Source: Watersipora subatra (lineage: Eukaryota). From it: a DNA stretch of 64,000 nt. The notes under the pieces were generated by a model. That model had not been told where the DNA came from and searched no databases. It worked only from the letters and a program-made list of their open reading frames with translations. The stretch's first letter is position 1. Each line of letters starts with the position of its first letter. Position numbers and translations under genes: made by a program. Below, piece by piece: positions 6,464-27,343 of the stretch. The DNA lies in NCBI RefSeq assembly GCF_963576615.1, contig NC_088708.1, forward strand, positions 42,797,115 through 42,861,114, written 5' to 3'.

Positions 6464-6649
6464 CTGTAAAAGACAGTCAAACACGAATAATTTAGGTTAC
6501 CAGTAGGTTAGTTACTACATTAGCCTCCTTGAAGGTTTTGCAAAAGTGCTAGTTGTAGAAGAGAAAATTTCTGCATGTGAATAGCCCATGTTGGTAAGTG
6601 ATTAAAAAAATAACATGGTACTGGATTGCATTAAAAAACTGATCCGCTC

Positions 6650-6800
6650 ATGTTTTAGAATGATATAGCTATAGTGCAGTACTCCATCTACCGTAAAACC
6701 TTTATTCGAACGCCATGACGCTCTATTTTTCAACCCTTTCCTTAGAGTGGCGTTGTATTCTTCAAACACCTCGTCAGAATGTTGAGAAAATATATTTAAT
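6650..6800. repeat. Dispersed repeat copy, found again inverted at 47330-47460
   Basis: The sequence cgaacgccatgacgctctatttttcaaccctttcc matches the reverse complement of ggaaaggttgaaaaatagagcgccgtggc... at 47390-47440. Confidence 0.4.
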
Positions 6801-7860: not shown

Positions 7861-8000
7861 AGTAGTGGCGTTCAAATGGAAGTGACATTCAATTAAAAGA
7901 TGGCTCTCTATTTTCCAACCGTTCTCACATAGTGGCGCTCAATTAAAGGTGGCGCTCAAATAGAGGTGGCATTCAAATGTAGGTGGCATTCAAATATAGG
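7861..8000. repeat. ~16-bp tandem repeat (GGTGGCRYTCAAATRT), ~6-8 copies
   Basis: The period is visible directly. Confidence 0.6.
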
Positions 8001-8255
8001 TTTTATGGTTTTTCCTCTTTTTAAAATTATTAAGTGATTAAATCTGTAAAATAATAATTTTCTAAAAATAGCCATAAACTCATGTATGAAATGATGACTG
8101 AGTGAGCTTATTAAATATTCCACAATAGATTTACAAAGCTTGTGTGCTTTTGCTTTGGCCTGTTGCACTATTTGTGTGACAAGGAGCGGCAAAAACCTGA
8201 AACATTTGAGCCGTGGTAAGCGCTGGTGCTAACAAGTGACGGCGCTACACCTAGC

Positions 8256-8698
8256 GGCACAATACCTACCTATGTCGGCACAATACCTACCTATGTCGGC
8301 ACAATACCTACCTATGTCGGCACAATACCTACCTATGTCGGTACAATACCTACCTATGTCGGCACAATACCTACCTATGTCGGTACAATACCTACCTATG
8401 TCGGCACAATACCTACCTATGTCGGCACAATACCTACCTATGTCGGCACAATACCTACCTATGTCGGCACAATACCTACCTATGTCGGTACAATACCTAC
8501 CTATGTCGGCACAATACCTACCTATGTCGGCACAATACCTACCTATGTCGGCACAATACCTACCTATGTCGGCACAATACCTACCTATGTCGGCACAATA
8601 CCTACCTATGTCGGCACAATACCTACCTATGTCGGCACAATACCTACCTATGTCGGCACAATACCTACCTATGTCGGCACAATACCTACCTATGTCGG
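8256..8698. repeat. 21-bp minisatellite, ~21 copies (GGCACAATACCTACCTATGTC), in an ANKMY2 intron
   Basis: The copies are near-perfect. The period of 21 is divisible by 3, so it gives ~200-aa ORFs in three frames on both strands (8226-8834, 8236-8766 and 8229-8879). Confidence 0.9.
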
Positions 8699-9232
8699 TA
8701 ATCTGTATAATTGTTATGATTGTTATGCTCGGTGTGGTGAGCTCCATAAGGCTTCTGAGGTGGTAAAAAAGAGACTGATTAACATGGTTGTAGGGTGTGT
8801 ATCTATTTTTGGCTTTAATGCTAACTACTGTTGATCTTGGGGGTTGGTTTTTTTCCTGATAGTGATAATAATAATGCATTCAGTTTATTGTAAATTATGT
8901 CTACCCTAGGACACTTATGTATTCGCCACATCTAACTTTCGCGTTTTCGCGGAGTCATCCTTTCGCGAAAATTTCATGTGCGAAACTAAACTATCATAAT
9001 GAACGAGCAAAAACGCGAAATTAAATAGCTTTGATCATTGATAGTCCAAAAAATAAATGGCAGCAAGCGATCAAATTGCATTATCGACCTCGCCCACACC
9101 ATTTTACCTGCGGTTCACAATTACAAACTAGTCCCAAATTGAAAGTTTTTTCTTATGGGTGAACCAAGCCCGTATTCCTTGGGGCAGCTGGCCGGCTGAG
9201 CCATCCCAACTTTTTAGGAACTTTTCGCGGCT

Positions 9233-9345
9233 ACACAGTAAATACAGTCAAACTCGGACAACTTGCCCTCTGATAAAATGTAACATTTCTTCCCAAACAC
9301 AAGGTTAACTCGAAAGGATTTTTTGGTCCGTTCCCACAATTCAAA
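9233..9345. mobile_element. 5' fragment of the same MITE family, inside an ANKMY2 intron
   Basis: The sequence tacagtcaaactcggacaacttgccctc...ggttaactcgaaaggattttttggtccgttcccaca is similar to the 5' ~110 bp of the element at 49241. Confidence 0.4.
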
Positions 9346-9941
9346 TTAGTCTATGATTCATTTACAGAAAACAATAGCAATTGAATTATAGAGGACTATC
9401 AGAAAAGACTGAGAGCAAGGAAAATTTAATGATGCAAATTCAGTTATGTAAACCGATGTAAAGATTTGTGCAACGGAAATTTCATATGAAAAATAAAAAA
9501 ACACTGTTAAAAATTAACAAATGAAAAGTAATCTATTATTGCATCTTGCATGCCTTCAATCTTTGATTTATATTTTTCAAAACTAAAACTCACTAACTTT
9601 CAATACCTGTTTAGCAGATATCAATTTTTTTCAGCTACCATTAGGATATCACAGAATAGTGAATTACCAAAATGTTGCAAATGCGATGTAAAAAGATTGA
9701 AAACCGCCTTTTTATGGCAATAGATTGCTAAAATTAGGTAGGACGGTTTGGCTAATCAAAGTAAGGAAACTTGGAGCAAATTATTGTTAGTTAAGGTGAG
9801 TTTTAAGCAACTGTGCATTACAGTTGTGATATAGCCTGAGTACCACAGAACCTTTAAGAGACTATACCATACATTGCACATCAACTATAGCGGTTCCCAG
9901 TGGAAAGCTACACATCTGCACAAGCTACACATTATGCTTAC

Positions 9942-10149
9942 AATCTCGTTTTCATTCATCCTTTTGAGCAGTTCACAAAAAACGCTGGAGCCTTTCTGTG
10001 GATATGATTTGAGAGTAGAGCGAACCAATTGGTCAACCTGGTCAAGAAGTCCATCGGAGGATCTGCCAGTGGCCAATCTAGAAACATTAGGAGAGCGGTT
10101 ATCGACAGAGAAACAGTAAGTAGCTCCTGAGATGGCCATAATAAACTTA
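9942..10149 (-). CDS. ANKMY2: ANKMY2 internal exon (...GRSSDGLLDQVDQLVRSTLKSYPQKGSSVFCELLKRMNENEI)
   Basis: It matches human GRASDGFPVYQEKIIRESIRKFPYCEATLLQQLVRSIAPVEI. It is 208 nt between an aataatag acceptor and a GTAAGC donor, entering in phase 2 and leaving in phase 0. Confidence 0.65.
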
Positions 10150-10257
10150 CTATTATTGAAGACTCTATGAGCAATGAGTGGGGTGTTAGCCCAGAGCAGC
10201 AGATGATTATCGCTTTCGTTACGGTTAGTCTATAAACACTGACAAAGGAAATCTCAC

Positions 10258-10466
10258 CTTTTAATAAAAGATTTCCCTGAGTCATTTTTGTCAGCCTTCT
10301 TAGTGTAGTCAATGACACAGGAAAGATAGTGAAACTTAAAAGACTGCGCCTCCTTTCCATCAGGAGGTGGTGTACTCGCCGCTGAGAGTTCATTAAGTAT
10401 TGCTATAAGATTCTTGCTCTCCGTTAGTAGTTCGGGGGTCTTGTGCAGCTCTCGTACCAAGTATAT
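10258..10466 (-). CDS. ANKMY2: ANKMY2 internal exon (IYLVRELHKTPELLTESKNLIAILNELSAASTPPPDGKEAQSFKFHYLSCVIDYTKKADKNDSGKSFIK)
   Basis: It matches human ...LVNENPLLTEEAALNKCYRVMDLI...AMKMHYISCIFQKCINFLKDGENKLDPLIK. A ttttag acceptor precedes it and a GTGAGA donor ends it in phase 2. Confidence 0.65.
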
Positions 10467-10982
10467 CTAAAATTGCAATTAACTTAAGTATTTGAACCAT
10501 TGCATGCGCATAATGAACTGTCTTAAGGAAATATGATATGAGAATATTAGAAACTGTGTCTGATAGATTTCTATTTTCAGCTTAGTCACTAAACTAAACG
10601 TAGATTTACCTTCCCTGTCTCGCTTTGATATATTCAACCACAGGCAACTACCATCTTCAACTCCACGCGATCGCTCATAACTATTAGCAGATGTAATAAA
10701 ACATTAAACTATATTATACTCCCAGGATAACTAAAATATGTAGCCTTTTCGAACTTCTTATAAAAATCGAGAATGCTCATTACAAGCAAAAGTCAAAATC
10801 GAACAGAAACCAGTTTCGATGACTATTGAAGCTTTGCTATCACAAAATTGTAACTAATGTTGATATGGTAACTTCATTAGGAATGCCTTCCAATGAAAAT
10901 CATGCGCAATAACGAAGCAAACACAATTCTTTTGGCAGTAGAAGTTCTCTTCCTACCTAATATCAACTAGATTCTACAAAAA

Positions 10983-11305
10983 ACATTGGGTAAAAATAAA
11001 AAAGACAGCACAGTGACAATACACTACAATAACATCGGGTATAACAAAGACAGCACAGTAACAATACACTTCAATAACATCGGGTATAATAAAGACAGCA
11101 CAGTGACAATACACTGCAATAACATCGGGTAAAACAAAGGCAGCATAGTGACAATACACTGCAATAACATCGGGTATAACAAAGGCAGCATAGCGACAAT
11201 ACACTGCAATAACATCGGGTATAACAAAGACAGTACAGTGGCAATACACTGCAAAAACATTGGGTATAACAAAGACAGTACAGTGACAATACGCTAGAAT
11301 AACAT
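10983..11305. repeat. 45-bp tandem repeat, ~7 copies
   Basis: The unit is ACATCGGGTATAACAAAGACAGCACAGTGACAATACACTGCAATA. ORFs 10974-11289 are translations of it. Confidence 0.85.
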
Positions 11306-12296
11306 AAAGCTTCTGGCTAGCCTGGTTGATAACAGACTGAATATTTAGGATTAAAAATAAAGATGTTTTCTGTGTTTACTAGTAAATGGCACCGCTGCTC
11401 GTGAGCAAACACTCCGAAAATACAAAAGATTATTCCACTTAAAAATGACTTCATATCACCTGCTTTGGGGCATGCTTCATACGAGTCAGTTTCCTTTGAC
11501 CACATAATTGCATACAGTCAGAGAAGATCGTAGGTCGCCAAATGTTATAAAATCTAGTTGGTTGTTTGTACTGAACCCGTAATAGGTCCACAGGCTAATA
11601 AATTGATAAGAGCCTTGTACGTACATTTAACTGATTTTAGTAGTTTATTGTCAAATTTGAGAAGTCAACAATTTTGTGGAGATGTATTAAAAAGTTTTTT
11701 AGTGATGAGATTTGTTTATAGGTTTGGTTAAAAATTGAAATTAAATTAACTTTTTAAACCTGACATCAGACATCGCGGCTGTAATTTTATATACATTGCT
11801 GTTTCTAAAAATCGAAAGATTTTTTCCAAGGATAAATTTTTCAAGAAAAGCATCTTGAAAAACAAAATCTTTGTAGCGTTATGTAATTTTTTGCGCGGTA
11901 GATTGTCTCCGGAAGGTTGTCTCCGAAAGGTTGTCTCTGAAATGCAAATGTTTGAAGCATGGAAACGGTAATTGTGTACCATTACTGTTACAAGAGGTGA
12001 AATTGCTGACTTACTGGGTGAAGATTGCAAGAAGAAATGAATGAATGGAATGGCTTCAGTAAATCTGGCTTCAACTTGGGTTTTGAGTCTTTTCCTACAA
12101 TATGGTAAATTTTTGGGATCACAACTTGAATATACATGTACAAACTTTGGTACATTTTTTACTATCGCAGAACTTTTATATATAAATAGACTCCATAAAA
12201 GCAAAAGATGTTACATGTAGAAACAGTTGATAAGGGAAAATGGAAGTATATAGATTGTTGAGCAAAAACTTGATAAAACATGACGTTTACAGGTTA

Positions 12297-12411
12297 TGGA
12301 TAATCTACTCAATGGGTGGATAACATACTCAATGGGTAGATAACCTACTCAATGGGTTGATAACCTACTCAATGGGTAGATAAGTAACTCAATGGGTAGA
12401 TAATCTACTGA
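12297..12411. repeat. 20-bp tandem repeat, ~6 copies (GGATAACCTACTCAATGGGT)
   Basis: The period is visible directly. Confidence 0.8.
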
Positions 12412-12770
12412 TGCACACTTACACACCTTATGTTTTATACACCAAATTCATTGACATTATGTGAATCTCTATCTACTATATAAACGACAAAAAATCTGTC
12501 TGTATATTTGTGTGTATATGTGTGTGTTAGTCTACCTTATAGAGCGGTCTTTCCTTTTTCGATTCAGTCGTACGAAGCGAACAAAATTAATATGAGTACC
12601 GTACTTTTCGGAGTATTAGACTTTTTTAATGATTTGAGCCATGCGGCTTATATAAGGGGGGCGGTTATTCTGCGGTTTTTTCTTTCAACCCTAGGGCGCA
12701 TTAACCGGAATTTCCGCTTAGTGCGCCTCTAGTGGTGAAAGAAAGCTTTTGTTTTCGCTTCGAAAATTAC

Positions 12771-13205
12771 CTACCAAAATTCTACTTCAAAATGGTAAGT
12801 ACTTCTCATTCATTGTTGTATTGTCTATGAATTGCCACGTCTCCACTACTTGAAAACGTTGCATTTGCCACTGTTGGTAATCGTAAACATGTTCATTTTC
12901 TTCCGCGGCTGAGTTACTTTTACTTTTTTTCCCGCTATGAGTATTACAGCTACTACAGAATTCGCACGGGTATTGCTACTGCGTTTTACCTACTAAATTT
13001 CTACTTCAAAAAGGTAAGAACTTTTCATTCATTGTTGGATTGTCTATGAATTGCCAAATCTCCACTATAATAGACGTTGCATTTGCCACTGTTGGTGATA
13101 GTAAACGTGTTCATTTCCTTCCGCAGCTGAGTTACTTCTATTTTTTTCCAGCTACAAGTACTACAGCTACTACAGAACTTGCACAGGTACTGCACGTTGC
13201 GATAG
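12771..13205. repeat. Tandem duplication of a ~220-bp unit (2 copies); each copy carries an ATG/AAG-GTAAGx donor-like site
   Basis: Copy 1 (ctaccaaaattctacttcaaaatgGTAAGTacttctcattcattgttg...) is ~85% identical to copy 2 (ctactaaatttctacttcaaaaagGTAAGAacttttcattcattgttg...). Confidence 0.7.
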
Positions 13206-14394
13206 GTGACGGTGAGAAGAAAGAGAGCAGCTGGTACCGACTTACTGTCAGCCTGCTTTAGCCATGGCCAGTTGTACATTGCCTGCTCAAAAGTAGGCAC
13301 AAGCCAAAACGGTTTGTTCATACACCCGGCAGAAAAACAAAAGATGTTGTTTATCCGCAAGTGTTGCGTTGAATTAACATTGTGTTATTGTTATGTCATG
13401 CTTGCATTAAATTAACATTATGTTATTTTTATATAATGCTTCGTTCCTCATGTTCTGCTATACGTACATATTATCCACATGCAGCATTTTCTCACATGTT
13501 TTTCAGTATATATATATATTTTCATGCATTCGTTTTCCTTATTTATCTCATTAAAAGGCTATCATGTTGGCATTATGTTTTATTATTGTAAGGTGCTAAT
13601 GCTGTCTGCTTTGACATCATACTGTCTGTGCTGTTATACATATAAATTTTATCAACAAAACCACATTACTGCTGCACTGTTTGGATATACCATGTCAAAA
13701 CGCAGGTTATAGACGAAGAACTGGTGAGCCATGATCAGTGTTTTAAGCATACATGTAGAAGTGTCCATTCAATAAATGCTGGTGATAGCAAAATATTTTG
13801 TAGAATTTCTTCAAAGATGCAAAATTTTTCAATACTGCCAGGTTGAAGAACTTCAGTTTGCCTAGCAATGTCAATTTCATTATCAGTTCTCTGTACAAAA
13901 AATAGGACAACTCCAATTTGAGTGGTTTGAGACTGATGCATTGTACATGTAGACTAGCTGTAAAATACAGTGCAGATTTCCATTGTTCTCCCAACATTAT
14001 TGAAATGTATGACTGCATATGTGTATGCATACACTGATCAAGGCAACAATTTTAGTAGACTGCATATTTGGAGCTGTTTTACAGTATGAAAGACAACTCT
14101 CAATAAATCGCTTGCTGTACGTGAATCTGTTCCCGTAGACATGTAATGTAGCTAATTTTAGACTACTGGTACTGAACTCACCATCTACTGACTAAGGAGA
14201 GACCTGTTACCGGTATGTATAATTTAGGCAATGAATCCCCTACCTCGCTTTAGAAAGTAGTTAAGTTGCTAAGTATAGCAATTTGAAAAAATTTGATAAT
14301 TGCTGATTAATTTATGAAACAGTAAAATATTTTCGTTCAAATTACTTGTTGTAGCTTGCACACAACAGGCAATCTATCAGACAATATCATATAG

Positions 14395-14490
14395 TCTATC
14401 AAAAAAAAGGCTTTTAGATCAAGGCTTACAGTTTACTGTAATGAGCCCTACAATCTACTAAAACAGGATTTGCAATCTATTAGAACAGAG
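14395..14490. repeat. Degenerate ~22-25-bp tandem repeat (..ACAATCTATTAGAACAGAGCTTATA..), also present at 16940-17125
   Basis: The same repeat family flanks a ~2.4-kb segment that contains the 39-bp array. Confidence 0.5.
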
Positions 14491-16471
14491 CTTATATGGG
14501 TAAGATTTTTTATTATGAGAATCGCCAGATTTCGGAACCTCTTTTAAAATTTGACTGAAAATATACTTCAACGGGTAATTTTGCATCAATGTTTTCTATT
14601 TTCATAATCTGCAAATTTTATTCCATCATAAACTGTACAATATAATGAATATCGACCAGAAATGAAACTATAATAAATGTTTTATTGGTCATTGATGGTT
14701 ATGTATCTATGAGTATTATTCAGTTTTATCATTGCTGTTCTCTGTGTAAAAATAAAATATAACTTATACAATGTTTTCAGAGTAAAGTGAAACAACTTTT
14801 GTTACCGTTTAAATATAATTCATAAGTACTTTAATATCCAACAGTTTTAGCATTCTTAATACAATAGAATAGAGTGTCCACGTTGTCCATTAAAATTGGC
14901 CACAACCAAAATAGGCTTACTCGTATAAATTATCATAATTACCTCACCACTCCATCCAGACTCCGGACAAACTTTTAGTAAAACACGACATTTGACAATT
15001 CTAAAAATCTTTTACAATAATAACTGGTTTAAAACACAGGCGTTACAAAAATATTTACATCGTAAACGTGACACTCTTATTCAACTATGATTATCTTGCC
15101 AGCATCGCGAATTTAAAATTATCCCAGTTTCCACCTTCAACAATGAAAAAAGAATTATATACTATTCTAGCAAAATAGAATATACTGAAAAACCGCAAAA
15201 GAGATTATTGCGAATAGCTTCCTATTGGTGTCAACATCCCTTATTAGATATAGCAATACTGATGAGGGTATGTATGAGCAGGGATGATCATCACAGTCGT
15301 TACTCTTTAGTGTACGTATGGCTACATTTCCGTGAGTGGTTTGCGATATGAAAAAAACATCAGGACTGGTAGTAAAGTATCATTTCAATTAAATTTTCTA
15401 TATAATATACTGTTTACTATGCGCTTGTCTTACACTAACAGGCAATATAATGTGCTTTTGAGATGTTCTTGTCATTTGTTATTCTCTTGATAAATAATGA
15501 TACAGAAAAGCAAACATTAACAAAATCAATCTTATTTTTAGCAATACAGATATTAATATAAATACTATATTGTTTCTTGTATTATATTATTCATGTACTC
15601 TTACATGAAATTGAATAGTATTTTTAAACATGATATCTAACAAATATTTCATATATACATTTGTATTATGTGTATTACCACATATTCATTATTTATTCGA
15701 TTTTAATTTACCATTTACATTTATTATATAAATAATAATCATTCAATTATTTATCAATATGATATAAAAGTACGTAGTAATAATAGCTATATTATTAATA
15801 ATTAATAAAAATGGTACAATACTACATTAAAACATCACCTCTTAAGCTCAGATTACAACTGCTACTAGTGAATATTTACTGTTCATATTCTATAAAATGT
15901 TTATTAGTAGTGTTTCAGATGTTAGTCGGCAAAAATTTTACCAGCCACAAAAGTTACTAATTTTTAGTCAATGGAGATGACAAGTAAATAAATTTTAAAT
16001 ATCGTTCAATAAATATAGATAGATTTATTGACTGCAGAATCTGGTAATTGCTGCAACTTTATTTGTCAACTATACATATCAAATCAAATCTCTATTAAAA
16101 ATCTATTACTACGAACAAATTAATTCCTTTGTAATATTCTACATTGTATAATAATAATTCAATACTGTATGACAAATGTGGATACAGATGTGTTGATACC
16201 TGCAAGTAAGCGTCGGAAGTGAACTATTTATTTAATTGTGAGTTGTCTCCTTTGTATCTAAGTTTTAGTGATTAGGATCAAGTATGCAAAGCACCGAAAC
16301 AGCGTACTATCCTTCTGCAAGTCAGTAAACACAAAGTGTCACTTCATGCTGTGCTACCGAGTTCACTAGTGTCTTATGGCTATCATACTGTCACAAGTGT
16401 TTGCATTCCTATGAGACGTCACAAAATTGTCAATACATCATGGACCAATAAAGTAATTTAAAAATTTTTTT

Positions 16472-16905
16472 TAATTCTAAATAGCTATAATGTTATATTA
16501 TGACATATTAAAATTCTAAATAGCTATAATGTTATATTATGACATATTAAAATTCTAAATAGCTATAATGTTATATTATGACATATTAAAATTCTAAATA
16601 GCTATAATGTTATATTATGACATATTAAAATTCTAAATAGCTATAATGTTATATTATGACATATTAAAATTCTAAATAGCTATAATGTTATATTATGACA
16701 TATTAAAATTCTAAATAGCTATAATGTTATATTATGACATATTAAAATTCTAAATAGCTATAATGTTATATTATGACATATTAAAATTCTAAATAGCTAT
16801 AATGTTATATTATGACATATTAAAATTCTAAATAGCTATAATGTTATATTATGACATATTAAATTTCTAAATAGCTATAATGTTATATTATGACATATTA
16901 AAATT
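16472..16905. repeat. 39-bp tandem repeat, ~11 near-identical copies
   Basis: The unit is AATTCTAAATAGCTATAATGTTATATTATGACATATTAA. Confidence 0.9.
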
Positions 16906-16939
16906 TGACAAAGTATGAAAAGCTTTTAAAATTCACAAA

Positions 16940-17125
16940 ATTTGACTCAAATAAAAAATCTTGCCCATATTCTATTAGAAAGAGCTTATAATCAGTTAAA
17001 ACAGAGTTTATAATCTATTAAAGTGAGGTTTACAATCTATCAGAACAGAGCTTATATTCTTTTAGAAAAGACTTGCAACCAATTCGGAGAGAGCCTAAAA
17101 TCTATAAGAACAGTGATTTAAAGTT
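16940..17125. repeat. Second block of the degenerate ~22-25-bp repeat
   Basis: See 14395-14490. Confidence 0.5.
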
Positions 17126-18607
17126 ATTAGACAGTTTTTAAAATATTACAACTATGTAAAAAAATAAATAAGCTAAAGGAATTTAAACAATAATGCAGCA
17201 AAATAATAAAAATACTATAAATAAAATCAATTTAAACTACATCCAGTGTAAGTGAAAGTAAGTTAAGCAGAAGCATATTTCTACCAGATGTTTTACCACT
17301 GAACTTACGTATTGTTGAGCCAACACTTCTATTCACACATCTCAAAGTTAAAGCAACATTAAAAACCCTTTTACTGAATAATTGTTATTAATTTGGTCTT
17401 TACATTTAATACAGAATAGTAGTATTTTTCTACATATTTCATATATACTTGTTTTGTTGCTATGTCATAGCCTCAAGAACAGAACAAACATAAAAGGATG
17501 CATCGTTATAAGAATAATTGTTGAAACATCAGTTTTTACATACAAAGTAAATATTAAAATGAATTAGCTTCAAATTTTGATATTTGGTTGTAAAACATAT
17601 ATTTAATGTGTCAAAATGTAGCAAATAAAGAGAAAACAACTCCTGATGACGCTGAAGAATATGCCTGTCATGTCTATACTTACAAATTAACAATAATGTT
17701 ATATATGCAGATAGAAACTCTCATAAACAAGTTTAAGAATATTCCTTTAATCATATGACCATTTTAGAGAAAGTTTTCCTGCCGTTTTTTTACATACAAA
17801 CCAAATATCAGTATGAATCAACTTGGCATGTTGAGGTTTGACTTTGACGTTTTAGTTGAAGAGTGAAAGACATAAGCTGTACTGGAATGAAAACTGTACC
17901 TTAATACTCAGCTGTCTCGCCACCAGTAACTGAAGCTTGGCATTCTATATTCTATATCTCATTCAAACTACCATCTTCCATGGATGAACAAATGTCAAAT
18001 TATTAATTACAGACAACCAATTCTTCAACTTACATTAAAGATGAACAAACCTGAATGTACGGAAAAATTTTCATACCATTATTATATATTACTAGCAGTA
18101 AGCCCGGTGCTGCCAGAGAAATCTTTAACACAAATTGCTACATTTCTTTCAAGACAATCCATGAAGGCATTAATTAAGGACATTGTACTTAATGCATGCT
18201 GCAGACGCATTGTTGAGTTTCTAATCAAATGGGTGTTTAAGAGGCTGGTTTCTCAGTAACTAGACAGAGTTTGAAAACCAAATATGTTTGGCAACCTGGT
18301 GGAAGGCACGAAGAGTGTGCGCGAGAAGCTTTGATAAAACTGGTTCAAAATGTTCACACAGACTTACAAGAACAAACAAACACACAAACAGACAAAGTGG
18401 TTTGTTGATAAGGCTTTAGAATTCTAATCATCACCAGTTTTCTGAGCTCTAGTCAAACCTTGCATATCATTGAAGCTGACAAGCCTCTCCATTTCTAGCC
18501 ATGAAAGACTTGCACCGATGTCTCTCACGCAGTCCAATAATAATCTCCTGATAGTCAACCATTTTTTTAATAATAGTAAAAGCTATGAAGCAGTAAAAGA
18601 AGAATAC

Positions 18608-18682
18608 CTGTGGTTTTGGTAAAGCGCTGCAACTTTTTCGACGGATAGAAGTTCATAATTACTCCTCCGATGTGGTGTTGTG
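18608..18682 (-). CDS. ANKMY2: ANKMY2 exon 5 (AQHHIGGVIMNFYPSKKLQRFTKTT)
   Basis: It matches human QHDCVTIINNFFPRERLDYYTKPQG. It is 75 nt between a cag acceptor and a GTATTC donor, with consistent phase. Confidence 0.7.
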
Positions 18683-18789
18683 CTGAAGAGATAAGAACTT
18701 ATAAGTAGCAAATCGACAAGAACAAGTATTAAAAAAAATATTTTAGTTTCAGTGCCAACAGGAGAGAGGATCCTGAATTATCAAACATA

Positions 18790-19395
18790 GAGTTTAAAGA
18801 GAAACCAATGTATCACCATATACAGCTATGGTATTCATAGAGTTAAGAAAATAACCAATACGTCGTCATATATAGCTGTAATATTCAGTTTAAGAGAAAC
18901 CAATGTATCCCCATATATAGCTATGGTATTCATAGAGTTAAGAAAATAACCAATACGTCGTCATATATAGCTGTAATATTCAGTTTAAGAGAAACCAATG
19001 TATCCCCAAATATAGCTATGGTATTCATAGAGTTAAGAAAATAACCAATACGTCGTCATATATAGCTGTAATATTCATAATTTAAGAGAAACCAATGTAT
19101 CACCATATACAGCTATGGTATTCATAGAGTTAAGAAAATAACCAATACGTCGTCATATATAGCTGTAATATTCATAGTTTAAGAGAAACCAATGTATCAC
19201 CATATACAGCTATGGTATTCATAGAGTTAAGAAAATAACCAATACGTCATCATATATAGCTGTAATATTCATAGTTTAAGAGAAACCAATGTATCACCAC
19301 ATACAGCTATGGTATTCGTAGAGTTAAGAAAATAACCAATACGTCATCATATATAGCTGTAATATTCATAGTTTAAGGAAAAACCAATGTATCAT
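18790..19395. repeat. ~48-bp tandem repeat organised as a ~96-bp two-variant higher-order repeat, ~6 higher-order copies
   Basis: The two variants ACCAATGTATCACCATATACAGCTATGGTATTCATAGAGTTAAGAAAATA and ACCAATACGTCGTCATATATAGCTGTAATATTCAGTTTAAGAGAA alternate. The array begins ~54 bp from the ANKMY2 exon 4 donor. Confidence 0.85.
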
Positions 19396-19448
19396 CGACT
19401 GTAAGCTGCAAGCTTCAATAATTTTATCTGCAAAAGCGACATTCTTAC

Positions 19449-19547
19449 CAACAAATGCTGCCATTTCTCCAGCTGTCCTGTTGACAGAATTCCGAACATC
19501 AACTTTTGCTCCTGCATCTAGCAGCATATTTACAACATTTTCATTAC
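19449..19547 (-). CDS. ANKMY2: ANKMY2 exon 4, ankyrin repeat (GNENVVNMLLDAGAKVDVRNSVNRTAGEMAAFVG)
   Basis: It matches human NKDITWVMLEAGAETDVVNSVGRTAAQMAAFVG. A cacag acceptor precedes it, a GTAAGA donor follows it, and the phase is consistent with its neighbours. Confidence 0.8.
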
Positions 19548-20301
19548 CTGTGAATACACAAAAATTAGGCTCAAGTGTAAAGCAATTTAACCAGCATCAT
19601 GCATGCTCTGGCAAAATGTAGGCACAAGTAGGCATCCAATCGATATGACAAAGTAATCGATTAAAATCTTAGACCGGAAGATAAACCTACCTAAATTACA
19701 TTTATAACGTTTAGACCAGTATTTAATGCACTGATGCATGGCCAAAGGCATCGTGCTGATGCAAGGGTGGAGACAAAGGTCAATCACAGATGTCAATGTT
19801 TTCTTTATTATGACTTAAATACTGTTATAATAATTTGAATGAACCTCAATGCTAAATGAATGCTAATTTTTAATCAAATCATACCTTGCACTGGTGATAT
19901 GCTTCCAAATGAATTTTTATGTTAAATGCTAATTAAAAATAACGATTTTTTAAGTTTAGTTGTATGAGACAAATGGTGTTTAAATGATGAACTTATCACA
20001 GCTGATAACTTTTACAAACTGAGAACTGAATTTGACAATAACAAAAATAGTGCATGAAGCGTAACTAATGCAAAGCATCACTGGATATAGTATCAACATC
20101 CCCTACTCACGCTAATGAAAGCTTGAGTAGGGGATGTTGGTACTGAATATCAGCTTGTATACCAAGGTCTAAGACCTCCACCTCCACCCTCCTCCTTTAA
20201 GATAACACAATGTAATTAATAGCATTGCAATACCACCACAGTTAACTATCCAAATTCATGTACTGATGTGATCATGTGAACATGTACAAAGCAGTTCAGA
20301 C

Positions 20302-20440
20302 CTGAAAGAGCTCCAAACATAAGCGCTGTGTATTTGTTTTCGTGTTTGTCAGAATTTACATCAGCTCCATGATCCAGTAGTATTTGGCACAGTTCCTCAT
20401 TACCTCTGAATGAGGCATGCTGGAGAGCAGTCATGCCGTT
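20302..20440 (-). CDS. ANKMY2: ANKMY2 exon 3, ankyrin repeats ([46 protein letters not shown])
   Basis: It has a classic ankyrin-repeat consensus and closely matches the recalled human ENGMTPLMHAAYKG...HGADVNCHQHEHGYTALMFAALSG. It lies between a ttttgcag acceptor and a GTCTGA donor. Confidence 0.8.
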
Positions 20441-20454
20441 CTGCAAAACAAGTA

Positions 20455-20635
20455 GCGTGTAACAGATAACATGTATCATGTAACGTATAACCTGTGGCAT
20501 GTAGCAGGTAACATTTAACAGGTAACATGTAACAAATAACCCATGGCATGTAGCAGGTAACATGTAGCATTTAACAGGTAACATGTAACAGATAACCCGT
20601 GGCATGTAGCAGGTAACATTTAACAGGTAGCGGAT
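20455..20635. repeat. ~60-bp tandem repeat, 3 copies, abutting the ANKMY2 exon 3 acceptor
   Basis: The unit aacaggtaacatgtaacaaataacccatggcatgtagcaggtaacatttaacagg is repeated. ORF 20246-20605(-) runs from the real ankyrin exon into this array. Confidence 0.7.
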
Positions 20636-21188
20636 ATCAAAGTTGGTTCAAGATTCAACGCGCTACCACAAAACTTCTTGCGTATGCTCAATACTAACTA
20701 TCTATAAACGCGAGTAATACTAGCGTACAAACTTGTGTTTAGTTAATATAATGAACAATAGAGACCTTCTAAAATCAAAAATTTACATCATAAGTTGAAC
20801 CTTTGTGTTAATAATAATTACTACAAGCAGATGCCTATAAAATCATGTAGTTAGTCTAAGAGTTTATGGAAATAAACAAACATAAAGAGAATATCTTCCC
20901 GTCATTGGATTATGAATATACATAAATCTTAAATGATGTCTCTACTCTCAGAGCTAAAAAATATAACAATTGCGCAAGCTTAGGTAACTAGGTACACCAG
21001 ATATTTTCTATAGATGAACAGATGATGAGACACTGGTCAATGCTGCCTATGTAACTATTCATGCCAACCTTTCATCACACCTACTTTTTATTATAACACG
21101 GTAAGTGCAGTACATTTTGTTTACTTCTCCCGATATTATCACAGATTGTGTCATAATGAGCTTAAAAATTGCAACTCTAAGCTACTAA

Positions 21189-21257
21189 CCATATCGACCA
21201 AATCCACATTGAAAGAAGGATTCTCTTCCAAAAATGTCTTCATCCCCATAGTATCAC
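21189..21257 (-). CDS. ANKMY2: ANKMY2 exon 2 (G)DTMGMKTFLEENPSFNVDLVDM
   Basis: A tattag acceptor precedes it and a GTTAGT donor follows it. The phase links exon 1 (phase 1) to exon 3 (phase 0). The peptide resembles human TVQEAGTLLSSKNVRVNCLDE. Confidence 0.5.
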
Positions 21258-21644
21258 CTAATAGGACGATATATGACAGATGCATAATGTTACAACAGCC
21301 AGCAATAAAAAACAGCGTGATATGGTTAAACAGCGTAGTTCCAAGTGAAAGTACAAAGTTCACATTGTTTTTATTAGGATTTGCTGACATCCTGTTTACA
21401 AGTTGCTTCTCAACAAATGTGCTGACGCTGTTTTTAATTCATAGCTACCTGCTATCTATGGCTCTCAGTTAGAGACAATTAATATTAAGCAAAAATAGGA
21501 AATCAATATCTTTGGTTTCTCTCCTACTCGAGCATAAGTGTGACGTCATCACAAATGAACAACAAATCTCTTGTATATGTTAACATTGCATTTTAATATT
21601 TCTATCGCTTATTAGAAATTAAAAACAATTTAAAAACCTCTTAC

Positions 21645-21717
21645 CTTTTCCATCTTCCACCATTGCTAACCATTTTTTCTCAAGCGGACTCTTTTCAGTT
21701 CCTGCAGCCGCAGCCAT
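21645..21717 (-). CDS. ANKMY2: ANKMY2 ortholog, first coding exon (MAAAAGTEKSPLEKKWLAMVEDGK)
   Basis: The ATG (reverse complement of 21715-21717) follows an in-frame TGA immediately upstream. A GTAAGA donor ends the exon in phase 1. The peptide aligns to the recalled human ANKMY2 N-terminus ...EEKELLEVIGKG. Confidence 0.6.
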
Positions 21718-22405: not shown

Positions 22406-23205
22406 CTCTCAATGCAACGCTAGAATTCCATATGAAAGTGCTGTTGGTAGGGAAAAGCACATTCGAAAATCTGAACGCATCGTTTTCCTTTTTTGAAATT
22501 AATTTGAAAATTACTTATAATAAATATTGCAACTTGAAGCACAGTATGTCGGTTTTATTGCAGTTTTCATTTGTTATAAAGAAAAACACAATTAACCAGC
22601 CAGGAGCTAGGTTAAGCCAAGAATTGTTCATGCTAGGTAAATATATCGAAACGACCGCTCAAAATCTTCGACTCTGCCTTACTACAGACGAACAGGTCTC
22701 CACGAGGTCTTACATATGTTTGCAGTAATTTTGTGTCGTAATATACAGAGTATATTCACGTAAAATGAAATAAAGAGTCAATCTAAACTTCTGGTTCAGT
22801 GTACGATAGTTGGGCAATACGTACTATAAGTAATGGAGGATAGACATAGATCGGTTTACAAGCACACAGGTGCGGCACATCGGAAGTAAGTTGAGCTTGG
22901 GATTTTCAAGCTAGTTTTGTGATAATTATGTATAAAATACCGAACAAGCGAGGCGCTTCATCGGCGGAAGAAAAAGGGCTACGAAAACCGATCTTCCCAA
23001 CTAAATATCTTTCTCGCTAAAATGCTGGGTTCAGAGCTAGAAGCACTGCGCCACATCTCTTACACAAAAGAGACGATAACTCAAAGTCAAAGGTATATGT
23101 TGTCAACCAAATCACTGTACAGACTGTAGACAACAGGGGTTCCCAACCTTTTTCATTCAGTTCTCCCCATATACCTTTTCATAAATTTGATTCCCCAATC
23201 CCCAC

Positions 23206-25957
23206 TATGGTTGCCAGATGGATGAGCAAAAAATACAGGACATATTGTGGCTGGTAGTGGGTTCTGTATTTAAAAGTGTATAGTGTCTTGCATATAGTTA
23301 TATGGTAAATACATGATATGATGACATGATATATATACTAATATAATAATGATATACATGCATATAATGGTGTACGGTAGCGTATATTAGACCCTTGCTT
23401 AGTATACATTGTCTCTTCTTCTCTTCAGTCTTAGTCACAATATTTTGTTGATTGTCTACACTTTTTTAGCAATGCATCATCTTTTAATACAGCAGCATAA
23501 AACGCTTTGCAGTTTATTTTTCTATTGCATGCCACTTGCAGCTCTGATTTTATAAGTACAGTTGATGCTCTGTTTCTTTCTTTTGTCCATTTGACTGTCA
23601 TGAGTGAAAATACACACTCAGGGCCGGCATTGCTGGTTGGTATGGAGAGTATATATGATACAAGCTTAGTTGTTTCCGGAAATAGTGGTGCGCATTCAAG
23701 ATGTAACTCCACTTCTCAGCTGGGGAGCTTAAGGACTTGATGTTATCCCAGGGAGTTCTTCTGATACAGCTATGCTCCTCGTACAATAAATCCTCATCCA
23801 CATGGCTTAGATTGAGATCATTCTTTAAATCAAGCATGTGTTGGTAGCTAGAGATGCCTTCTATCAGTGCAAAATGAGTTGCTTTGTATGAATAAGAGTC
23901 TTCGGGGAAGTCAAACCATTTCTCTAGGCAGGCACTAGCTAAAAAAACATGAACAATTTTGCAATCTGCATTATTTGTATTGTAAGCTGTATGCATGTAT
24001 GTGACCTATTACGCTTTTTCTAACTTCTACCGATCCAAAATGTGTCACATAAAATGGCTGTTATTTTTGGAAGTGATCATTTATCATAGTATGCAGCATT
24101 ACACATACACACCATTGCCTAGGAATCCATGAAGATCTGTGATGATTATCCGGTGTTCATTGATGCTCAATTTACTCAATATTGTTCTCGCTGTACTACC
24201 AAAGAATTTGTCTTCCATTCTGTCTTTCAAGGAGCCTCTCAGTACATTCATAATGCCATAAAGCTCCATTATTGTACCATTGTTCTTCTCGAGTTGCAGA
24301 ACAGCCTTCTCAAATACTGTGGGAATATTTGATATAAAGCTCAGATAGAGTTCCACAATGCATTCCTTTGCTTGAGAATTGTCAGTCCCAACCATTTTGA
24401 GTTTCAGTAACTGTTTAACAGCAGTTGGTCAATCATCCTCGAGTGAGATAAAATAACTTTTCATTGCTAGTAAAACTTTCAGTAATCTCTCAACTGCAGG
24501 TTCTAATGACAGCCATCTTGTGGGCACATGTCTTAGTAGCTCACACCACTCTATATCAAGAAATTCATAAAACTCCTTGAGCTGCTGTCTTCGGCCTGCT
24601 GAAAAAGAAAAGTGATTGAAGACCCGTATTACTATTAACTCCACATCCACATCTAATTTGGAAGCAACATTCTTTAAGCAATTGTGCACGAGATGAGCAC
24701 AACAGTTAGCTTGTAGTAAGTTTGGTTGTTCTATCTTCAGATGTTGGTAAACAGAATGGTGCACTCCATAGTTCACAGATGCATTGTCAGCACTATACGC
24801 TGTCGCCTTCGACATGTCAATGTTGAATTTAGCTAGCGATTCCTGAACAGCTTTAGCTATGCTTATAGAGTCTTTTTTAGGGTCTTCATAGAAATCCAAT
24901 AAAACAGATTGAATGTCATCATGTGGTGTATAGAATCCCAGCATTACTGGAAACATTTCTTGGTTCCCTTTGTTACTAGCATCTCGCAATACTAAATGGT
25001 AGCAACCCATCTCGTAGTTTTTGCACAGCTGTACATACACTGTATGGTGCCAACACATTCTTGACAGTAGCCTCAGCTTTTGTTCGCCCACAAGATATCT
25101 GCTTTGCAACAACACTCCCAGAGTATATAATCCTATCCAATTTCATATCACAGTCCAATGAATTATAACTCAAGCTATGTTTCACTGTGTGAAATACTTT
25201 GGTAAGCTCAGCAGCAGTTATTTGACTTTGCTGAGAGCTTTCTGTAGAAGCAAAAAATGTAGACAACAGCTGATTATTTTTAGCTGAGCTTACACTTTTC
25301 TTATGGTACTTGGTTTCTTCATGCTGTTTAAGGTCCGCTGCTCCTGATGCGATGGAGAAGTCTTTGTTGCAAAGACTGCAGCGCACTTTGTATTTATCTC
25401 TGCTCACAGGCTTTATCCATATGAATTTCTTTTCCCATGTTTTGCTATATACTTTTAAGCGCTTGGATTTCTTTGGTGGAGTATTGTGAAGATCTTCAGC
25501 TGTCGAAGAACTTACCTCAGACATGCTGACTGATGAACTACCAAATTTATTGTGGGCTGTGGCTGAAAATTTCATAATTCGCTAGCACTTTCCTGAATCA
25601 ATGGGGTGGGAAGAGGCATTTCCCTTCTATCCATTGCCAACTCCACAATAGATAGAAGGGAAATTCCCACTAATTACAGCTGTTTGTTTGGCTGTAGTTA
25701 TATGCATAGATACCTATATTATATATCTATCAATCATCAATGGTTATTGTCATATAATATTCCAGTTGGCTCAATGACCAATACAGCTGCAATGGTTGTT
25801 GTATATGTATTACATGTACATGTATTTATAGAAAATAGTTACAGATACAAAATAACTCTCACCTGAAACTCAAATACAGGACAGTTAGGGTCAAATACAG
25901 AACACAGACCAAAAAAACAGGACTATCCTATCAAATACAGGACATCTGGCAACCCTA
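23206..25957 (-). mobile_element. hAT-superfamily DNA transposon, 2752 bp, with 15-bp terminal inverted repeats and an 8-bp target-site duplication
   Basis: The left terminus is TATGGTTGCCAGATG at 23206-23220. The right terminus at 25943-25957 is the reverse complement of TAGGGTTGCCAGATG, so the terminal inverted repeats match 14 of 15. The flanking 8-mers ATCCCCAC (23198-23205) and ATCCCCAT (25958-25965) are the expected hAT target-site duplication. The subterminal motif AAATACAGGACA occurs once at the left end and four times at the right end. The interior encodes a hAT transposase on the minus strand. Confidence 0.75.
23431..25575 (-). pseudogene. hAT transposase coding region, interrupted by at least three frame changes (decay or introns)
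   Basis: ORFs 24976-25575, 24429-25115, 24099-24395 and 23431-23712 are in different frames. The N-terminus carries a C2H2-like zinc finger (RCSLCNKDF...HEETKYHKK). The middle has YSADNASVN...CCAHLVHN and TRWLSL. The C-terminus has the hAT dimerisation motif SIPTSNAGPECVFSLM. Confidence 0.7.
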
Positions 25958-27184
25958 ATCCCCATACACTTTTAACCCACATGACTAAAAACAACCGATA
26001 CAAATTATAATCCCATTTTATTGTACATATCTAAACATGTAACAACATATTATTAATTTTTATACAGCATGCATACAACACTCAACAATGCATGACATTT
26101 GGCATGGCGGTGAATTGATTTATGACTAGGTTAACTTACTATCCAATCAAAATCTGGATGGATGTGTTCACATATATCTTGGTTCTGACTAGTAGCTCAT
26201 TATTAGCAGCTAGTGTTATAGATAAAACCAAAATGTTAAATGATGAAACCTAAACTCACACGGCACTGCAGGACGTAAATTATAAGTTTAACGAATCAAA
26301 CACCTCTCTGTTTCCCCCTTGTATATTAAAATTTCCACCCTAAAGTGGAATTCCTCCCTGGTTGGAAACCCCTGATATACGCTAAGTTGTCAAAAGCTGT
26401 TTGAAAATATTAGCCGTGTTTATTGTTGCTTGTAACCTGCTAGCTCAGCACGTAGATGTTTGAGCGCTTAAAAGACCTAGCATTTCATAGGAACTCTAGA
26501 ACAAGTCTATAAAGCCTTATCTTATGTATTTATATGCCTTGGCTGATTTCAACAAATTTGACAAAGCAATCTCGAGAGCCTACCTATTTATACCAATAGT
26601 AATCATACACAGTACTTAATTTCATTACATAGTAATCATATAATGAAACAATTCTACAAAAAACTCCCAATGAGGGGTACATTACGTTGAATATATACAT
26701 TCTTGTTGCATGAGAGCGAGTAAATAAAAAGTGCTTTAAAGTGGACTGTTTCAATTTATAAGTAGATGTTAATCCAGAGATACAAATACGTGTGAATATG
26801 TATACTCGAACAGAAATTCTTATAAAGCTCACTACTATATTTTTATTATATTCACAGCTCGTGAACATGAAAGAAGGCACAATGAAAACATTACAAAAAT
26901 TAAAAATAATTTAGATAAAAATCAAGCTACCAGGAAAAGTATTCACATTCAAAAGATGCACAGTAGACAAACACAAGGACAGGCATCATTTTATATGACT
27001 TGCTGAGCACCGTAAAAATATAACTTTATGCACGTGAATTCAGTGAGTGTCATTCAAAATGGTTTGTCAATGCTGCCTTGAATACTCCAGGGGACAGCTA
27101 TAGACTAATTCACTCGACTGCTGTGAAGCTTATCATAGACACACTAAGAACAATATAAAGTATAAAGTAAAGAACTTATAAAGT

Positions 27185-27343
27185 TTATGTATAAAACATA
27201 ATCTCTGGAATCTGACCGTCCTCAACTGAGGTGCCGTTATTGTTGCCAGCTGCGTACGAAAACTGAAACGATATTTTTCCACTAGTTGGAGACTCGTGGG
27301 TCACTTTTCTCAGTCCCTTACTTCCGTAATAGGAGTCGGGTCC
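27185..27343 (-). CDS. BTBD6: BTBD3/6 terminal exon ([52 protein letters not shown])
   Basis: It is a near-identical match to the BTBD3/6 C-terminus [54 protein letters not shown] gttttag acceptor precedes it in phase 0, and the stop TAA is the reverse complement of 27185-27187. Confidence 0.85.

What the first reader, a model, noticed from the sequence alone, without database searches (positions are those of the whole stretch)
23198..25965. Structurally complete hAT insertion with intact 8-bp TSD (ATCCCCAY) between the BTBD 3' end and the ANKMY2 promoter
The termini read TAGGGTTGCCAGATG on the right (in reverse complement) and TATGGTTGCCAGATG on the left, a single mismatch and the canonical hAT TAGGG start. 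The flanking 8-mers are 7 of 8 identical. Together with the transposase motifs (C2H2-like finger, RWLSL, hAT-C dimerisation), this indicates a relatively recent insertion ~1.5 kb upstream of the ANKMY2 start codon. The transposase reading frame is split into at least four frames. That could be early decay or genuine introns.
Basis: partly seen in the sequence, partly recalled or inferred. Interest (0 to 1): 0.55.

Follow-up and report, generated by a model that had tools for sequence, protein, structure and literature searches.

The report
Decayed hAT transposon upstream of ANKMY2
This is an ordinary full-length but coding-dead copy of a cut-and-paste hAT DNA transposon. It sits about 1.5 kb upstream of an ANKMY2-like gene, and a near-identical copy with an intact transposase gene exists in another public dataset.

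Summary
A 2,752-bp element (23206-25957) has 15-bp terminal inverted repeats matching 14/15 (TATGG.../TAGGGTTGCCAGATG). Its flanking 8-mers match 7/8 (ATCCCCAC/ATCCCCAT). This joint layout is expected 0.025 times per shuffled window.

The minus strand carries a hAT transposase gene. The repaired 640-aa product passes Pfam Dimer_Tnp_hAT. Its AlphaFold model (pLDDT 85) matches only Hermes transposase in the PDB (E 2.4e-10).

A second copy (L002, 94% identical) starts its homology exactly at TAGGG, next to unrelated flank. That fixes the terminus.

L002 encodes an intact 641-aa protein once a 174-nt GT-AG segment is removed. A third copy (L003) has this segment at 176 nt, so only splicing joins its two open frames. 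The intron is therefore genuine.

The window copy also carries three private lesions: a 2-bp deletion, a TGC>TGA nonsense codon and a 1-bp deletion. Its private divergence is 4%, with a neutral substitution pattern. It is full-length but non-autonomous, and only moderately recent.

It lies 1,489 bp upstream of the putative ANKMY2-like start codon (minus strand). This is a new member of a known kind, of low interest.

The parts
23198..23205 (.). Left copy of the 8-bp target site duplication (ATCCCCAC)
   Evidence: It matches 25958-25965 at 7/8 and lies directly against the TIR.
23206..23220 (+). Left terminal inverted repeat TATGGTTGCCAGATG (the 3' end relative to the transposase gene). Position 3 is T where the other end has G.
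   Evidence: (I11). The L002 copy aligns through CATCTGGCA before its contig ends 6 bp short.
23229..23271 (.). Left subterminal repeats: AAATACAGGACA (23231-23242) and the inverted GTTCTGTATTT (23258-23271). Probable transposase (BED finger) binding sites.
   Evidence: (D1, I18). Both are conserved in L002. That they bind transposase is inferred from Hermes (PMC10368747).
23431..23938 (-). Transposase exon 2, including the hAT C-terminal dimerisation region, the catalytic-E motif (NAGPECVFS) and the TAA stop at 23433-23431. It is broken by a private 1-bp deletion between 23694 and 23693.
   Evidence: Pfam Dimer_Tnp_hAT. Profile match to the Hermes C-terminus.
23939..24112 (-). Genuine phase-1 intron of 174 nt (GTGTGT...TTTTTTTAG).
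   Evidence: GT-AG is conserved in three copies. It is 176 nt in L003, so only splicing joins the frames there. Between L002 and L003 it is 83% identical, against 93-95% for the exons.
24113..25524 (-). Transposase exon 1, from the probable start ATG at 25524 (MSEVSSS...). It holds the CCHH finger, the DDE residues D182 and D247, the CxxH motif and RWLSL. It is broken by a private 2-bp deletion between 24984 and 24983 and by a private TGC>TGA nonsense codon at 24429-24431.
   Evidence: The upstream ATG at 25575 is ATA in L002.
25615..25667 (.). Palindrome with 22-nt arms (91% complementary) in the 5' untranslated region of the element. Role unknown.
   Evidence: I2. Conserved in L002.
25870..25944 (.). 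Right subterminal repeats: three copies of AAATACAGGACA / AAATACAGAACA.
   Evidence: (D1). All 4 matches in the 64-kb window lie within 90 bp of the element ends, against 0.71 expected by chance. Conserved in L002.
25943..25957 (-). Right terminal inverted repeat (reverse complement TAGGGTTGCCAGATG). This is the 5' end relative to the transposase gene.
   Evidence: Homology with the independent copy L002 begins exactly at this T.
25958..25965 (.). Right copy of the 8-bp target site duplication (ATCCCCAT)

Best explanation
The interval is one full-length but non-autonomous copy of a hAT-superfamily cut-and-paste DNA transposon (2,752 bp).

What is shown:
- It is intergenic and on the same strand as the downstream gene. 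Its left end is 1,489 bp upstream of the putative start codon of an ANKMY2-like gene.
- The family's two-exon gene encodes a transposase of about 640 aa. The protein has an N-terminal CCHH finger, a DDE catalytic core of the Hermes type and a C-terminal hAT domain.
- This copy cannot make transposase. It carries a 2-bp deletion next to the first catalytic Asp, a TGC>TGA nonsense codon and a 1-bp deletion before the C-terminal domain.
- It has drifted neutrally by about 4% since it shared an ancestor with the intact copy L002.

What is inferred from Hermes and other hAT elements:
- The transposase binds the AAATACAGGACA-type subterminal repeats through its zinc finger and pairs the two 15-bp termini.
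- It excises the element with hairpin formation on the flanking DNA.
- It reinserts the element across an 8-bp staggered cut, which on repair gives the ATCCCCAY duplication seen here.
- Because the termini and subterminal repeats survive, an intact relative in the same genome might still move this copy. The G>T change at position 3 of the left terminus may hinder that.
For: 1. The TIR and TSD geometry is exact. As a joint configuration it is rare, at 0.025 per shuffled window.
2. The subterminal repeats are confined to the two ends: 4 of 4 window matches, against 0.71 expected.
3. The conceptual protein aligns over 94-99% of its length with 620-680-aa animal hAT proteins, at E down to 1e-144.
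4. 33 of 34 family members pass Pfam Dimer_Tnp_hAT. The repaired window protein scores 22.5 bits and the intact L002 protein 27.7 bits, against a cut-off of 21.4.
5. The family profile hits Hermes transposase in the PDB at E 1.6e-7.
6. The AlphaFold model of the repaired window protein has pLDDT 85.1. It matches Hermes chains only: E 2.4e-10, about 530 aligned columns, TM 0.60 by target.
7. D182, D247, C275, H278, R337, W338 and E579 are invariant or nearly invariant in the family alignment.
8. Copy L002 is 94.2% identical over elrc (reverse complement of 23206-25957) positions 1-2746. Homology starts exactly at TAGGG and the flank is unrelated to the window.
9. L002 is intact after intron removal, giving 641 aa.
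10. L003 confirms the intron.
11. The three lesions are private to the window copy.
12. dN/dS between L002 and L003 is 0.18. The window's private codon changes are 15 synonymous to 28 nonsynonymous. L002's are 5 to 0.
13. Private divergence is 4.05% for the window and 0.47% for L002.
Against: - No empty site and no second copy with both ends could be obtained. The left boundary therefore rests on TIR symmetry, the TSD and L002 homology reaching to 6 bp from the end.
- The left terminus TATGG violates YARNG at position 3.
- The TSD is 7/8 and lies in a C-rich, locally repetitive target, which raises the chance of a flanking match somewhat.
- Pfam zf-BED is below threshold (17-18 bits against 20.6).
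- DUF4371 was not found in my own scans.
- The source organisms of L001-L003 are unknown. Whether an intact copy coexists with this one in the same genome is therefore not shown.
Confidence: 0.95

Rival explanations
1. The copy is recent and still autonomous. On this view the apparent frame breaks are all introns, and the copy encodes working transposase.
For: One of the interruptions is indeed an intron. The element is full length relative to L002.
Against: The other three breaks are a 2-bp deletion, a TGC>TGA change and a 1-bp deletion. All three fall in sequence that is continuous coding DNA in L002 and L003, and in distant homologues. They have no splice signals or extra sequence. Private substitutions amount to 4% and are neutral in pattern.
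Confidence: 0.01
2. It is a domesticated hAT-derived host gene of the ZBED, ZNF862 or GTF2IRD2 type, not a transposon.
For: Some database homologues are named 'zinc finger protein 862-like'. A weak precomputed hit to the FAM200-GTF2IRD2-like family was seen on P0001, and a faint one on P0045.
Against: TIRs, TSD and subterminal repeats are all present. Several copies exist at unrelated loci. The ORF at this locus is broken three times.
Confidence: 0.01
3. The inverted repeat and flanking repeat are chance matches around an older transposase fragment. The true element boundaries lie elsewhere, for example at the outer CAGGGGTTYCCAACC pair (23134 and 26374).
For: 15-nt inverted repeats with one mismatch are common here, with 281 in the window. 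An outer inverted-repeat pair with a YARNG terminus brackets the element, with 0.03 expected by chance.
Against: L002 homology begins exactly at TAGGG and does not extend into the window's flank. At the other end it runs to within 6 bp of 23206. The outer pair has flanking 8-mers matching only 4/8. The sequence between the outer pair and the hAT termini has no match in L001-L003. The outer pair is better read as an older short element into which this hAT inserted.
Confidence: 0.02
4. The element arrived here as part of a segmental duplication rather than by transposition. On this view the 8-bp repeat is incidental.
For: The target is locally repetitive. TCCCCAT-type motifs occur at 23164, 23191 and 23199 (D10 and D19).
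Against: No flank homology in register extends beyond the 8-mers. There is no second copy of the element or its flanks in the 64-kb window. The flank of L002 is unrelated to the window.
Confidence: 0.02

Closest known systems
Hermes (Musca domestica hAT transposon; PDB 2BW3, 4D1Q, 6DWW, 8SJD)
   Same: The overall transposase fold is shared (Foldseek E 2.4e-10, about 530 columns). So is the C-terminal ...S.P.S.A..ER.FS... catalytic-E and dimerisation motif, with a weaker match (3.7 bits) at the RW motif. Both have an 8-bp TSD, short imperfect TIRs and asymmetrically arranged subterminal repeats (PMC10368747). The window's TSD, ATCCCCAC, fits Hermes's nTnnnnAn preference.
   Different: Only about 15% sequence identity. 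At the sequence-profile level only the C-terminal 50-77 residues align. The TIR sequence differs (TAGGGTTGCCAGATG, 15 bp, against 17 bp in Hermes). The zinc finger here is CCHH; Hermes's is CCHC. This family has an intron. The 8-mer next to L002 (CATTGTTG) does not fit nTnnnnAn.
TcBuster and the Buster group of hAT elements
   Same: Size and layout are nearly the same. TcBuster is 2,750 bp with a 636-aa transposase and short TIRs. Active Buster elements are 2.5-3.0 kb, encode 597-677 aa and have 14-16-bp TIRs (PMC12637253). The family profile aligns with TcBuster over 386 columns, from the zinc finger through D, D, CxxH and RW (E 5.8e-8).
   Different: Neither available flanking 8-mer fits the Buster consensus nnnTAnnN (PMC3517528): ATCCCCAC in the window and CATTGTTG in L002. 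Identity is about 18%. No phylogeny was built, so membership of Buster, Ac or Tip is undecided.
Ac of maize and BuT2 of Drosophila buzzatii (hAT elements with introns)
   Same: In both, the transposase gene is interrupted by introns. BuT2 is 2,775 bp with 12-bp TIRs, 8-bp TSDs, five exons and a 643-aa protein (PMC3942097). From my own knowledge, Ac's termini are CAGGGATGAAA and TAGGGATGAAA, one end starting TAGGG and the two ends differing by one base. That resembles the pattern here.
   Different: This family has a single 174-176-nt intron. More distant homologues are continuous at that position (P0002). There is no detectable sequence relationship beyond the superfamily motifs.

Membership tests
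hAT superfamily of DNA transposons | 8-bp target site duplication directly flanking the termini (PMC3942097, PMC3014272) | tested here: met
   ATCCCCAC and ATCCCCAT match 7/8 and abut both TIRs. The joint TIR plus TSD configuration is expected 0.025 times per shuffled window.
hAT superfamily of DNA transposons | Short TIRs (10-25 bp) with the terminal motif YARNG (PMC3942097, PMC3014272) | tested here: met
   The TIRs are 15 bp and match 14/15. The right end, TAGGG, fits YARNG, and so does the same end of L002. The left end, TATGG, departs at position 3. This is probably a private G>T change, but it cannot be checked because L002 stops 6 bp short.
hAT superfamily of DNA transposons | Transposase with the C-terminal hAT dimerisation domain (Pfam PF05699) | tested here: met
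   The repaired window protein scores 22.5-22.6 bits and the intact L002 protein 27.7 bits, against a cut-off of 21.4. 33 of 34 homologues match. The raw, frameshifted ORF alone scores 20.8 bits, just below the cut-off.
hAT superfamily of DNA transposons | DDE catalytic core of the Hermes type, with an inserted helical domain carrying the RW motif, plus CxxH | tested here: met
   The model has pLDDT 85.1. Its only significant PDB matches are Hermes chains (E 2.4e-10, TM 0.60 by target). D182, D247, C275, H278, R337, W338 and E579 are conserved in 34 sequences.
hAT superfamily of DNA transposons | N-terminal BED-type zinc finger | tested here: inconclusive
   Pfam zf-BED scores 17.3-18.5 bits, below the 20.6 cut-off. 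However, C49, C52, H68 and H74 are invariant. The model shows three strands followed by a helix at residues 37-69.
hAT superfamily of DNA transposons | Repeated element whose copies end at the TIRs and have unrelated flanks | tested here: met
   Homology with L002 begins at base 1 of the right TIR, and its flank is unrelated to the window. L001 and L003 are internal fragments of further copies. Only one terminus could be tested in this way.
hAT superfamily of DNA transposons | An empty site (flanks joined with a single 8-mer) in another haplotype or species | not testable with these tools
   The host genome is not in any searchable DNA collection.
Buster family of hAT | TSD consensus nnnTAnnn (PMC3517528) | tested here: inconclusive
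   Neither ATCCCCAC (window) nor CATTGTTG (L002) has TA at positions 4-5. Two sites cannot test a statistical consensus.
Buster family of hAT | Transposase groups with Buster elements in a phylogeny | not tested
   No reference set was available.
Ac family of hAT | TSD consensus nTnnnnAn (stated for Hermes in PMC10368747) | tested here: inconclusive
   The window TSD ATCCCCAC fits (T at position 2, A at position 7). The L002 8-mer CATTGTTG does not.

The most novel reading that the evidence does not exclude
The family may be currently active in its host or hosts.
- Copy L002 has an intact 641-aa transposase, only 0.47% private divergence and no private nonsynonymous changes.
- The lineage is under purifying selection (dN/dS 0.18).
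- The window copy keeps both termini and the subterminal repeats, so it could be moved in trans.
- If the family is active, it would be an uncharacterised single-intron animal hAT element of TcBuster-like size, and a possible candidate for a gene-transfer tool.
- The copy is on the same strand as the ANKMY2-like gene and 1.5 kb upstream of it. It could supply read-through transcription or regulatory sequence to that gene.
Probability: 0.3. Interest if true: 0.3.

Novelty: new member of a known kind. Interest (0 to 1): 0.15.

Why it matters
It matters little beyond annotation. The interval should be masked as a hAT DNA transposon pseudocopy, not called as four or five small genes. The 174-nt intron should be recorded in the family consensus. 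The element should be noted as an insertion in the ANKMY2-like upstream region.

The only wider interest is that an apparently intact, selectively maintained relative exists (L002). The family may therefore still be mobile somewhere.

Tried and rejected
- Pfam on the raw ORF pieces gave only sub-threshold hits.
- phmmer of the single conceptual protein against PDB sequences found nothing. A family profile was needed.
- DUF4371, PF27046 and PF27073 appear among the precomputed database labels. None was reproduced by my own hmmscan at E up to 10. I dropped them as evidence.
- The JGI metagenome protein-pattern scan found no further copies.
- Exact 23-nt terminal-sequence scans of the metagenome, prokaryote genome and viral collections also found none.
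- The C-terminal protein search gave only L002 and L003. No copy with the left terminus plus flank was obtained.
- L001 is a fragment covering only positions 806-1823 of the element (plus-strand numbering from 23206), about 90% identical. It has no TIR.
- A third TIR-like site at 27238 (2 mismatches) was treated as chance.
- The afdb50 fold library was unavailable.
- Exact-sequence look-ups of the window's BTB ORF, tried in order to identify the host, found nothing.
- The apparent donor at the start codon (ATGTCTGAG|GTAAGT) is not conserved in L002 (GAGGCAAGT). I rejected it as an intron.
Full report
**Observation**

- The left terminus, 23206-23220, reads TATGGTTGCCAGATG.
- The right terminus, 25943-25957, reads CATCTGGCAACCCTA, whose reverse complement is TAGGGTTGCCAGATG. 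The two match 14/15 (pair I11).
- The 8-mers immediately outside are ATCCCCAC (23198-23205) and ATCCCCAT (25958-25965), matching 7/8.

The inverted repeat alone proves little.
- The real window holds 281 pairs of 15 nt with at most 1 mismatch, 0.5-6 kb apart. Dinucleotide shuffles hold about 54.
- Three other such pairs lie in this same 3.6-kb region.

The joint configuration is rare. An inverted repeat directly flanked by 8-mers matching at least 7/8 occurs twice in the real window. It occurs 0.025 times per shuffle, in 1 of 40 shuffles.

The motif AAATACAGGACA, with at most 1 mismatch, occurs four times in the 64 kb. All four lie within 90 bp of the element's ends, against 0.71 expected. An inverted copy sits at 23258-23271 (I18). 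This is the subterminal-repeat layout typical of hAT ends.

**Coding content**

The transposase gene is on the minus strand. Below, "elrc" means coordinates on the reverse complement of 23206-25957, so that window position = 25958 − elrc.

tblastn with 44 database homologues shows the coding sequence runs in two frames. It starts in frame 2 and moves to frame 3 at elrc ~974. It continues in frame 3 across an in-frame TGA at elrc 1527-1529.

It resumes in frame 3 after a 174-nt gap. It moves back to frame 2 at elrc ~2265 and stops at elrc 2525-2527.

With these breaks repaired, the 640-aa product aligns over 94-99% of its length with 620-680-aa hAT proteins. These come from fishes, salamanders, turtles, beetles, aphids and flies, at 34-43% identity and E down to 1e-144.

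Evidence that this is a hAT transposase:
- The repaired product passes Pfam Dimer_Tnp_hAT at 22.5 bits, against a cut-off of 21.4.
- 33 of 34 aligned relatives also pass.
- The family profile finds Hermes transposase among PDB sequences at E 1.6e-7.
- An AlphaFold model of the repaired window protein has pLDDT 85.1 and pTM 0.75.
- That model matches only Hermes chains among solved structures: E 2.4e-10, about 530 aligned columns, TM 0.60 by target.
- The alignment conserves a CCHH finger (C49, C52, H68, H74), D182, D247, C275xxH278, R337-W338 and E579. These correspond to the zinc finger, the DDE triad, the CxxH motif and the RW motif of hAT enzymes.
- zf-BED itself stays below its Pfam threshold. 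I could not reproduce DUF4371.

**Other copies**

Three related contigs were recovered through the protein index.

L002 (ENA ERZ25072730, 4,863 bp):
- It is 94.2% identical to the element over elrc 1-2746. The contig ends 6 bp before the far terminus.
- Homology begins exactly at the T of TAGGGTTGCCAGATG. The 2.1 kb upstream has no similarity to the window.
It also fixes that boundary to the base.

L003 (Logan SRR30685189, 1,718 bp) is an internal piece of a third copy, 88% identical.

L001 (ENA ERZ6864376) holds a 1-kb fragment, 90% identical to the window.

No copy was found in JGI metagenomes, prokaryote genomes or viral contigs.

**Intron or decay? Both**

The intron:
- In L002, removing one 174-nt segment with GT...AG ends (GTATGT...TTTTTTCAG) leaves an uninterrupted 641-aa ORF.
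- The same segment in the window is 24112-23939 on the minus strand (GTGTGT...TTTTTTTAG). Removing it restores ...FLGN-A-SACLEKWFDF.... This matches, residue for residue in length, the continuous FLDTAISYIEKWFDF of the distant homologue P0002.
- In L003 the segment is 176 nt. The upstream ORF is in frame 1 and the downstream ORF in frame 3, so only splicing at the conserved GT/AG joins them.
- Between L002 and L003 the segment is 83% identical. The exons are 93-95% identical and the 3' untranslated region 75%. The segment therefore evolves like non-coding DNA.
- I conclude that it is a genuine phase-1 intron.

The decay. The other three breaks are private to the window copy:
- a 2-bp deletion (GT) between 24984 and 24983, in the Ser codon just before the first catalytic Asp;
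- TGC (Cys) changed to TGA at 24429-24431;
- a 1-bp deletion between 23694 and 23693.

A 3-bp in-frame deletion is also present. The upstream ATG at 25575 is ATA in L002, so the real start is probably the ATG at 25524.

**Age and selection**

- dN/dS between L002 and L003 is 0.18, so the family's transposase has been under purifying selection.
- Changes private to the window copy are 15 synonymous to 28 nonsynonymous, close to neutral. Those private to L002 are 5 to 0.
- Over 1,704 aligned sites, private divergence is 4.05% for the window copy, 0.47% for L002 and 7.39% for L003.
- Together with one mismatch in the TIR and one in the TSD, this describes an insertion that is full-length but clearly ageing. 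It is not very recent.

**Mechanism**

Shown: the anatomy (TSD, TIRs, subterminal repeats, a two-exon transposase gene) and the Hermes-type fold.

Inferred from Hermes and other hAT elements (PMC10368747, PMC3942097):
- The zinc finger binds the subterminal repeats, which are arranged asymmetrically at the two ends.
- The DDE site cuts at the termini.
- Integration across an 8-bp stagger creates the duplication.

This copy makes no transposase. It retains the cis sites, so it could be mobilised in trans if an intact relative is present. The left terminus TATGG departs from the YARNG motif (PMC3014272) at position 3, which may reduce that ability.

**Context**

- The ANKMY2-like gene is on the minus strand, to the left of the element.
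- Its ankyrin exons are at 20443-20300 and 19563-19441.
- A plausible first exon begins at the ATG at 21717 (MAAAAGTEKSPLEKKWLAMVEDGK) and ends at a canonical AAG|GTAAGA donor.
The transposase gene has the same orientation as ANKMY2.
- A BTB+BACK exon lies at 55077-56351 on the minus strand. I did not map that gene's 3' end.

**Comparison with known families**

Membership of the hAT superfamily is met on every defining feature I could test. These are the 8-bp TSD, short YARNG TIRs, the hAT C-terminal domain, the Hermes-type fold and multiple copies ending at the TIR.

The subgroup is undecided.
- The family profile aligns with TcBuster over 386 columns (E 5.8e-8). It aligns with Hermes over only 50.
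- The element's size (2,752 bp, 640 aa, 15-bp TIR) is almost that of TcBuster (2,750 bp, 636 aa; PMC12637253).
- The two available target 8-mers do not show the Buster nnnTAnnn pattern (PMC3517528). Only the window's fits nTnnnnAn.
- Introns in hAT transposase genes are well known, for example in BuT2 (PMC3942097).

**Verdict**

I rate it a new member of a known kind, because I could not check it against Repbase or Dfam. Interest is low.

The most novel reading left open is that the family is still active, judging from the intact, barely diverged L002 copy.

Noticed in passing
window 49241-49995 (also 50535-51245 and 9245-9337): A second element with the TIR plus TSD layout. It is 755 bp with about 26-nt TIRs (CAGTGAAACTCGGMTAACTCG..., 92%; the terminus CAGTG fits YARNG). 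Its flanking 8-mers are TACACATA and TACATATA (7/8). An 80%-identical copy lies 1.3 kb downstream and a fragment at 9245-9337. It is probably a non-autonomous hAT-type MITE family.
   Followed up: partly
window 23134-23148 and 26360-26374: The inverted pair CAGGGGTTCCCAACC / CAGGGGTTTCCAACC brackets the hAT element. These are the only two matches in the window, with 0.03 expected by chance. Without the hAT and its TSD the bracketed piece would be 481 bp. The hAT may therefore have inserted into an older short hAT-like element. The outer flanking 8-mers match only 4/8, and no other copy was found.
   Followed up: partly
window 25615-25667: A palindrome with 22-nt arms (91% complementary, 9-nt spacer) lies in the element's 5' untranslated region, just upstream of the transposase start. 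It is conserved in L002. Its role is unknown; it could be a promoter or regulatory site, or a protein-binding site.
   Followed up: no
window 6248-21717 (minus strand): The ANKMY2-like gene is transcribed on the minus strand. Exons were detected at 21717-~21649, 20443-20300, 19563-19441, 18680-18603, 12095-12012, 10466-10314 and 6463-6248. The Ank and zf-MYND domains were confirmed by Pfam.
   Followed up: partly
window 55077-56351 (minus strand): A long 424-aa exon encodes BTB (89 bits) and BACK (43 bits) domains. Its downstream exons and 3' end, somewhere between about 26 kb and 55 kb, were not mapped.
   Followed up: partly
L002 2112-4863 (ENA ERZ25072730): An apparently intact, possibly autonomous copy of the same hAT family. 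It encodes a 641-aa transposase after splicing and has only 0.47% private divergence. Its source organism is unknown.
   Followed up: yes
window 27238-27252: TATTGTTGCCAGCTG resembles the element's TIR with 2 mismatches, 1.3 kb to the right of the element. No partner was looked for, and I treated it as chance.
   Followed up: no
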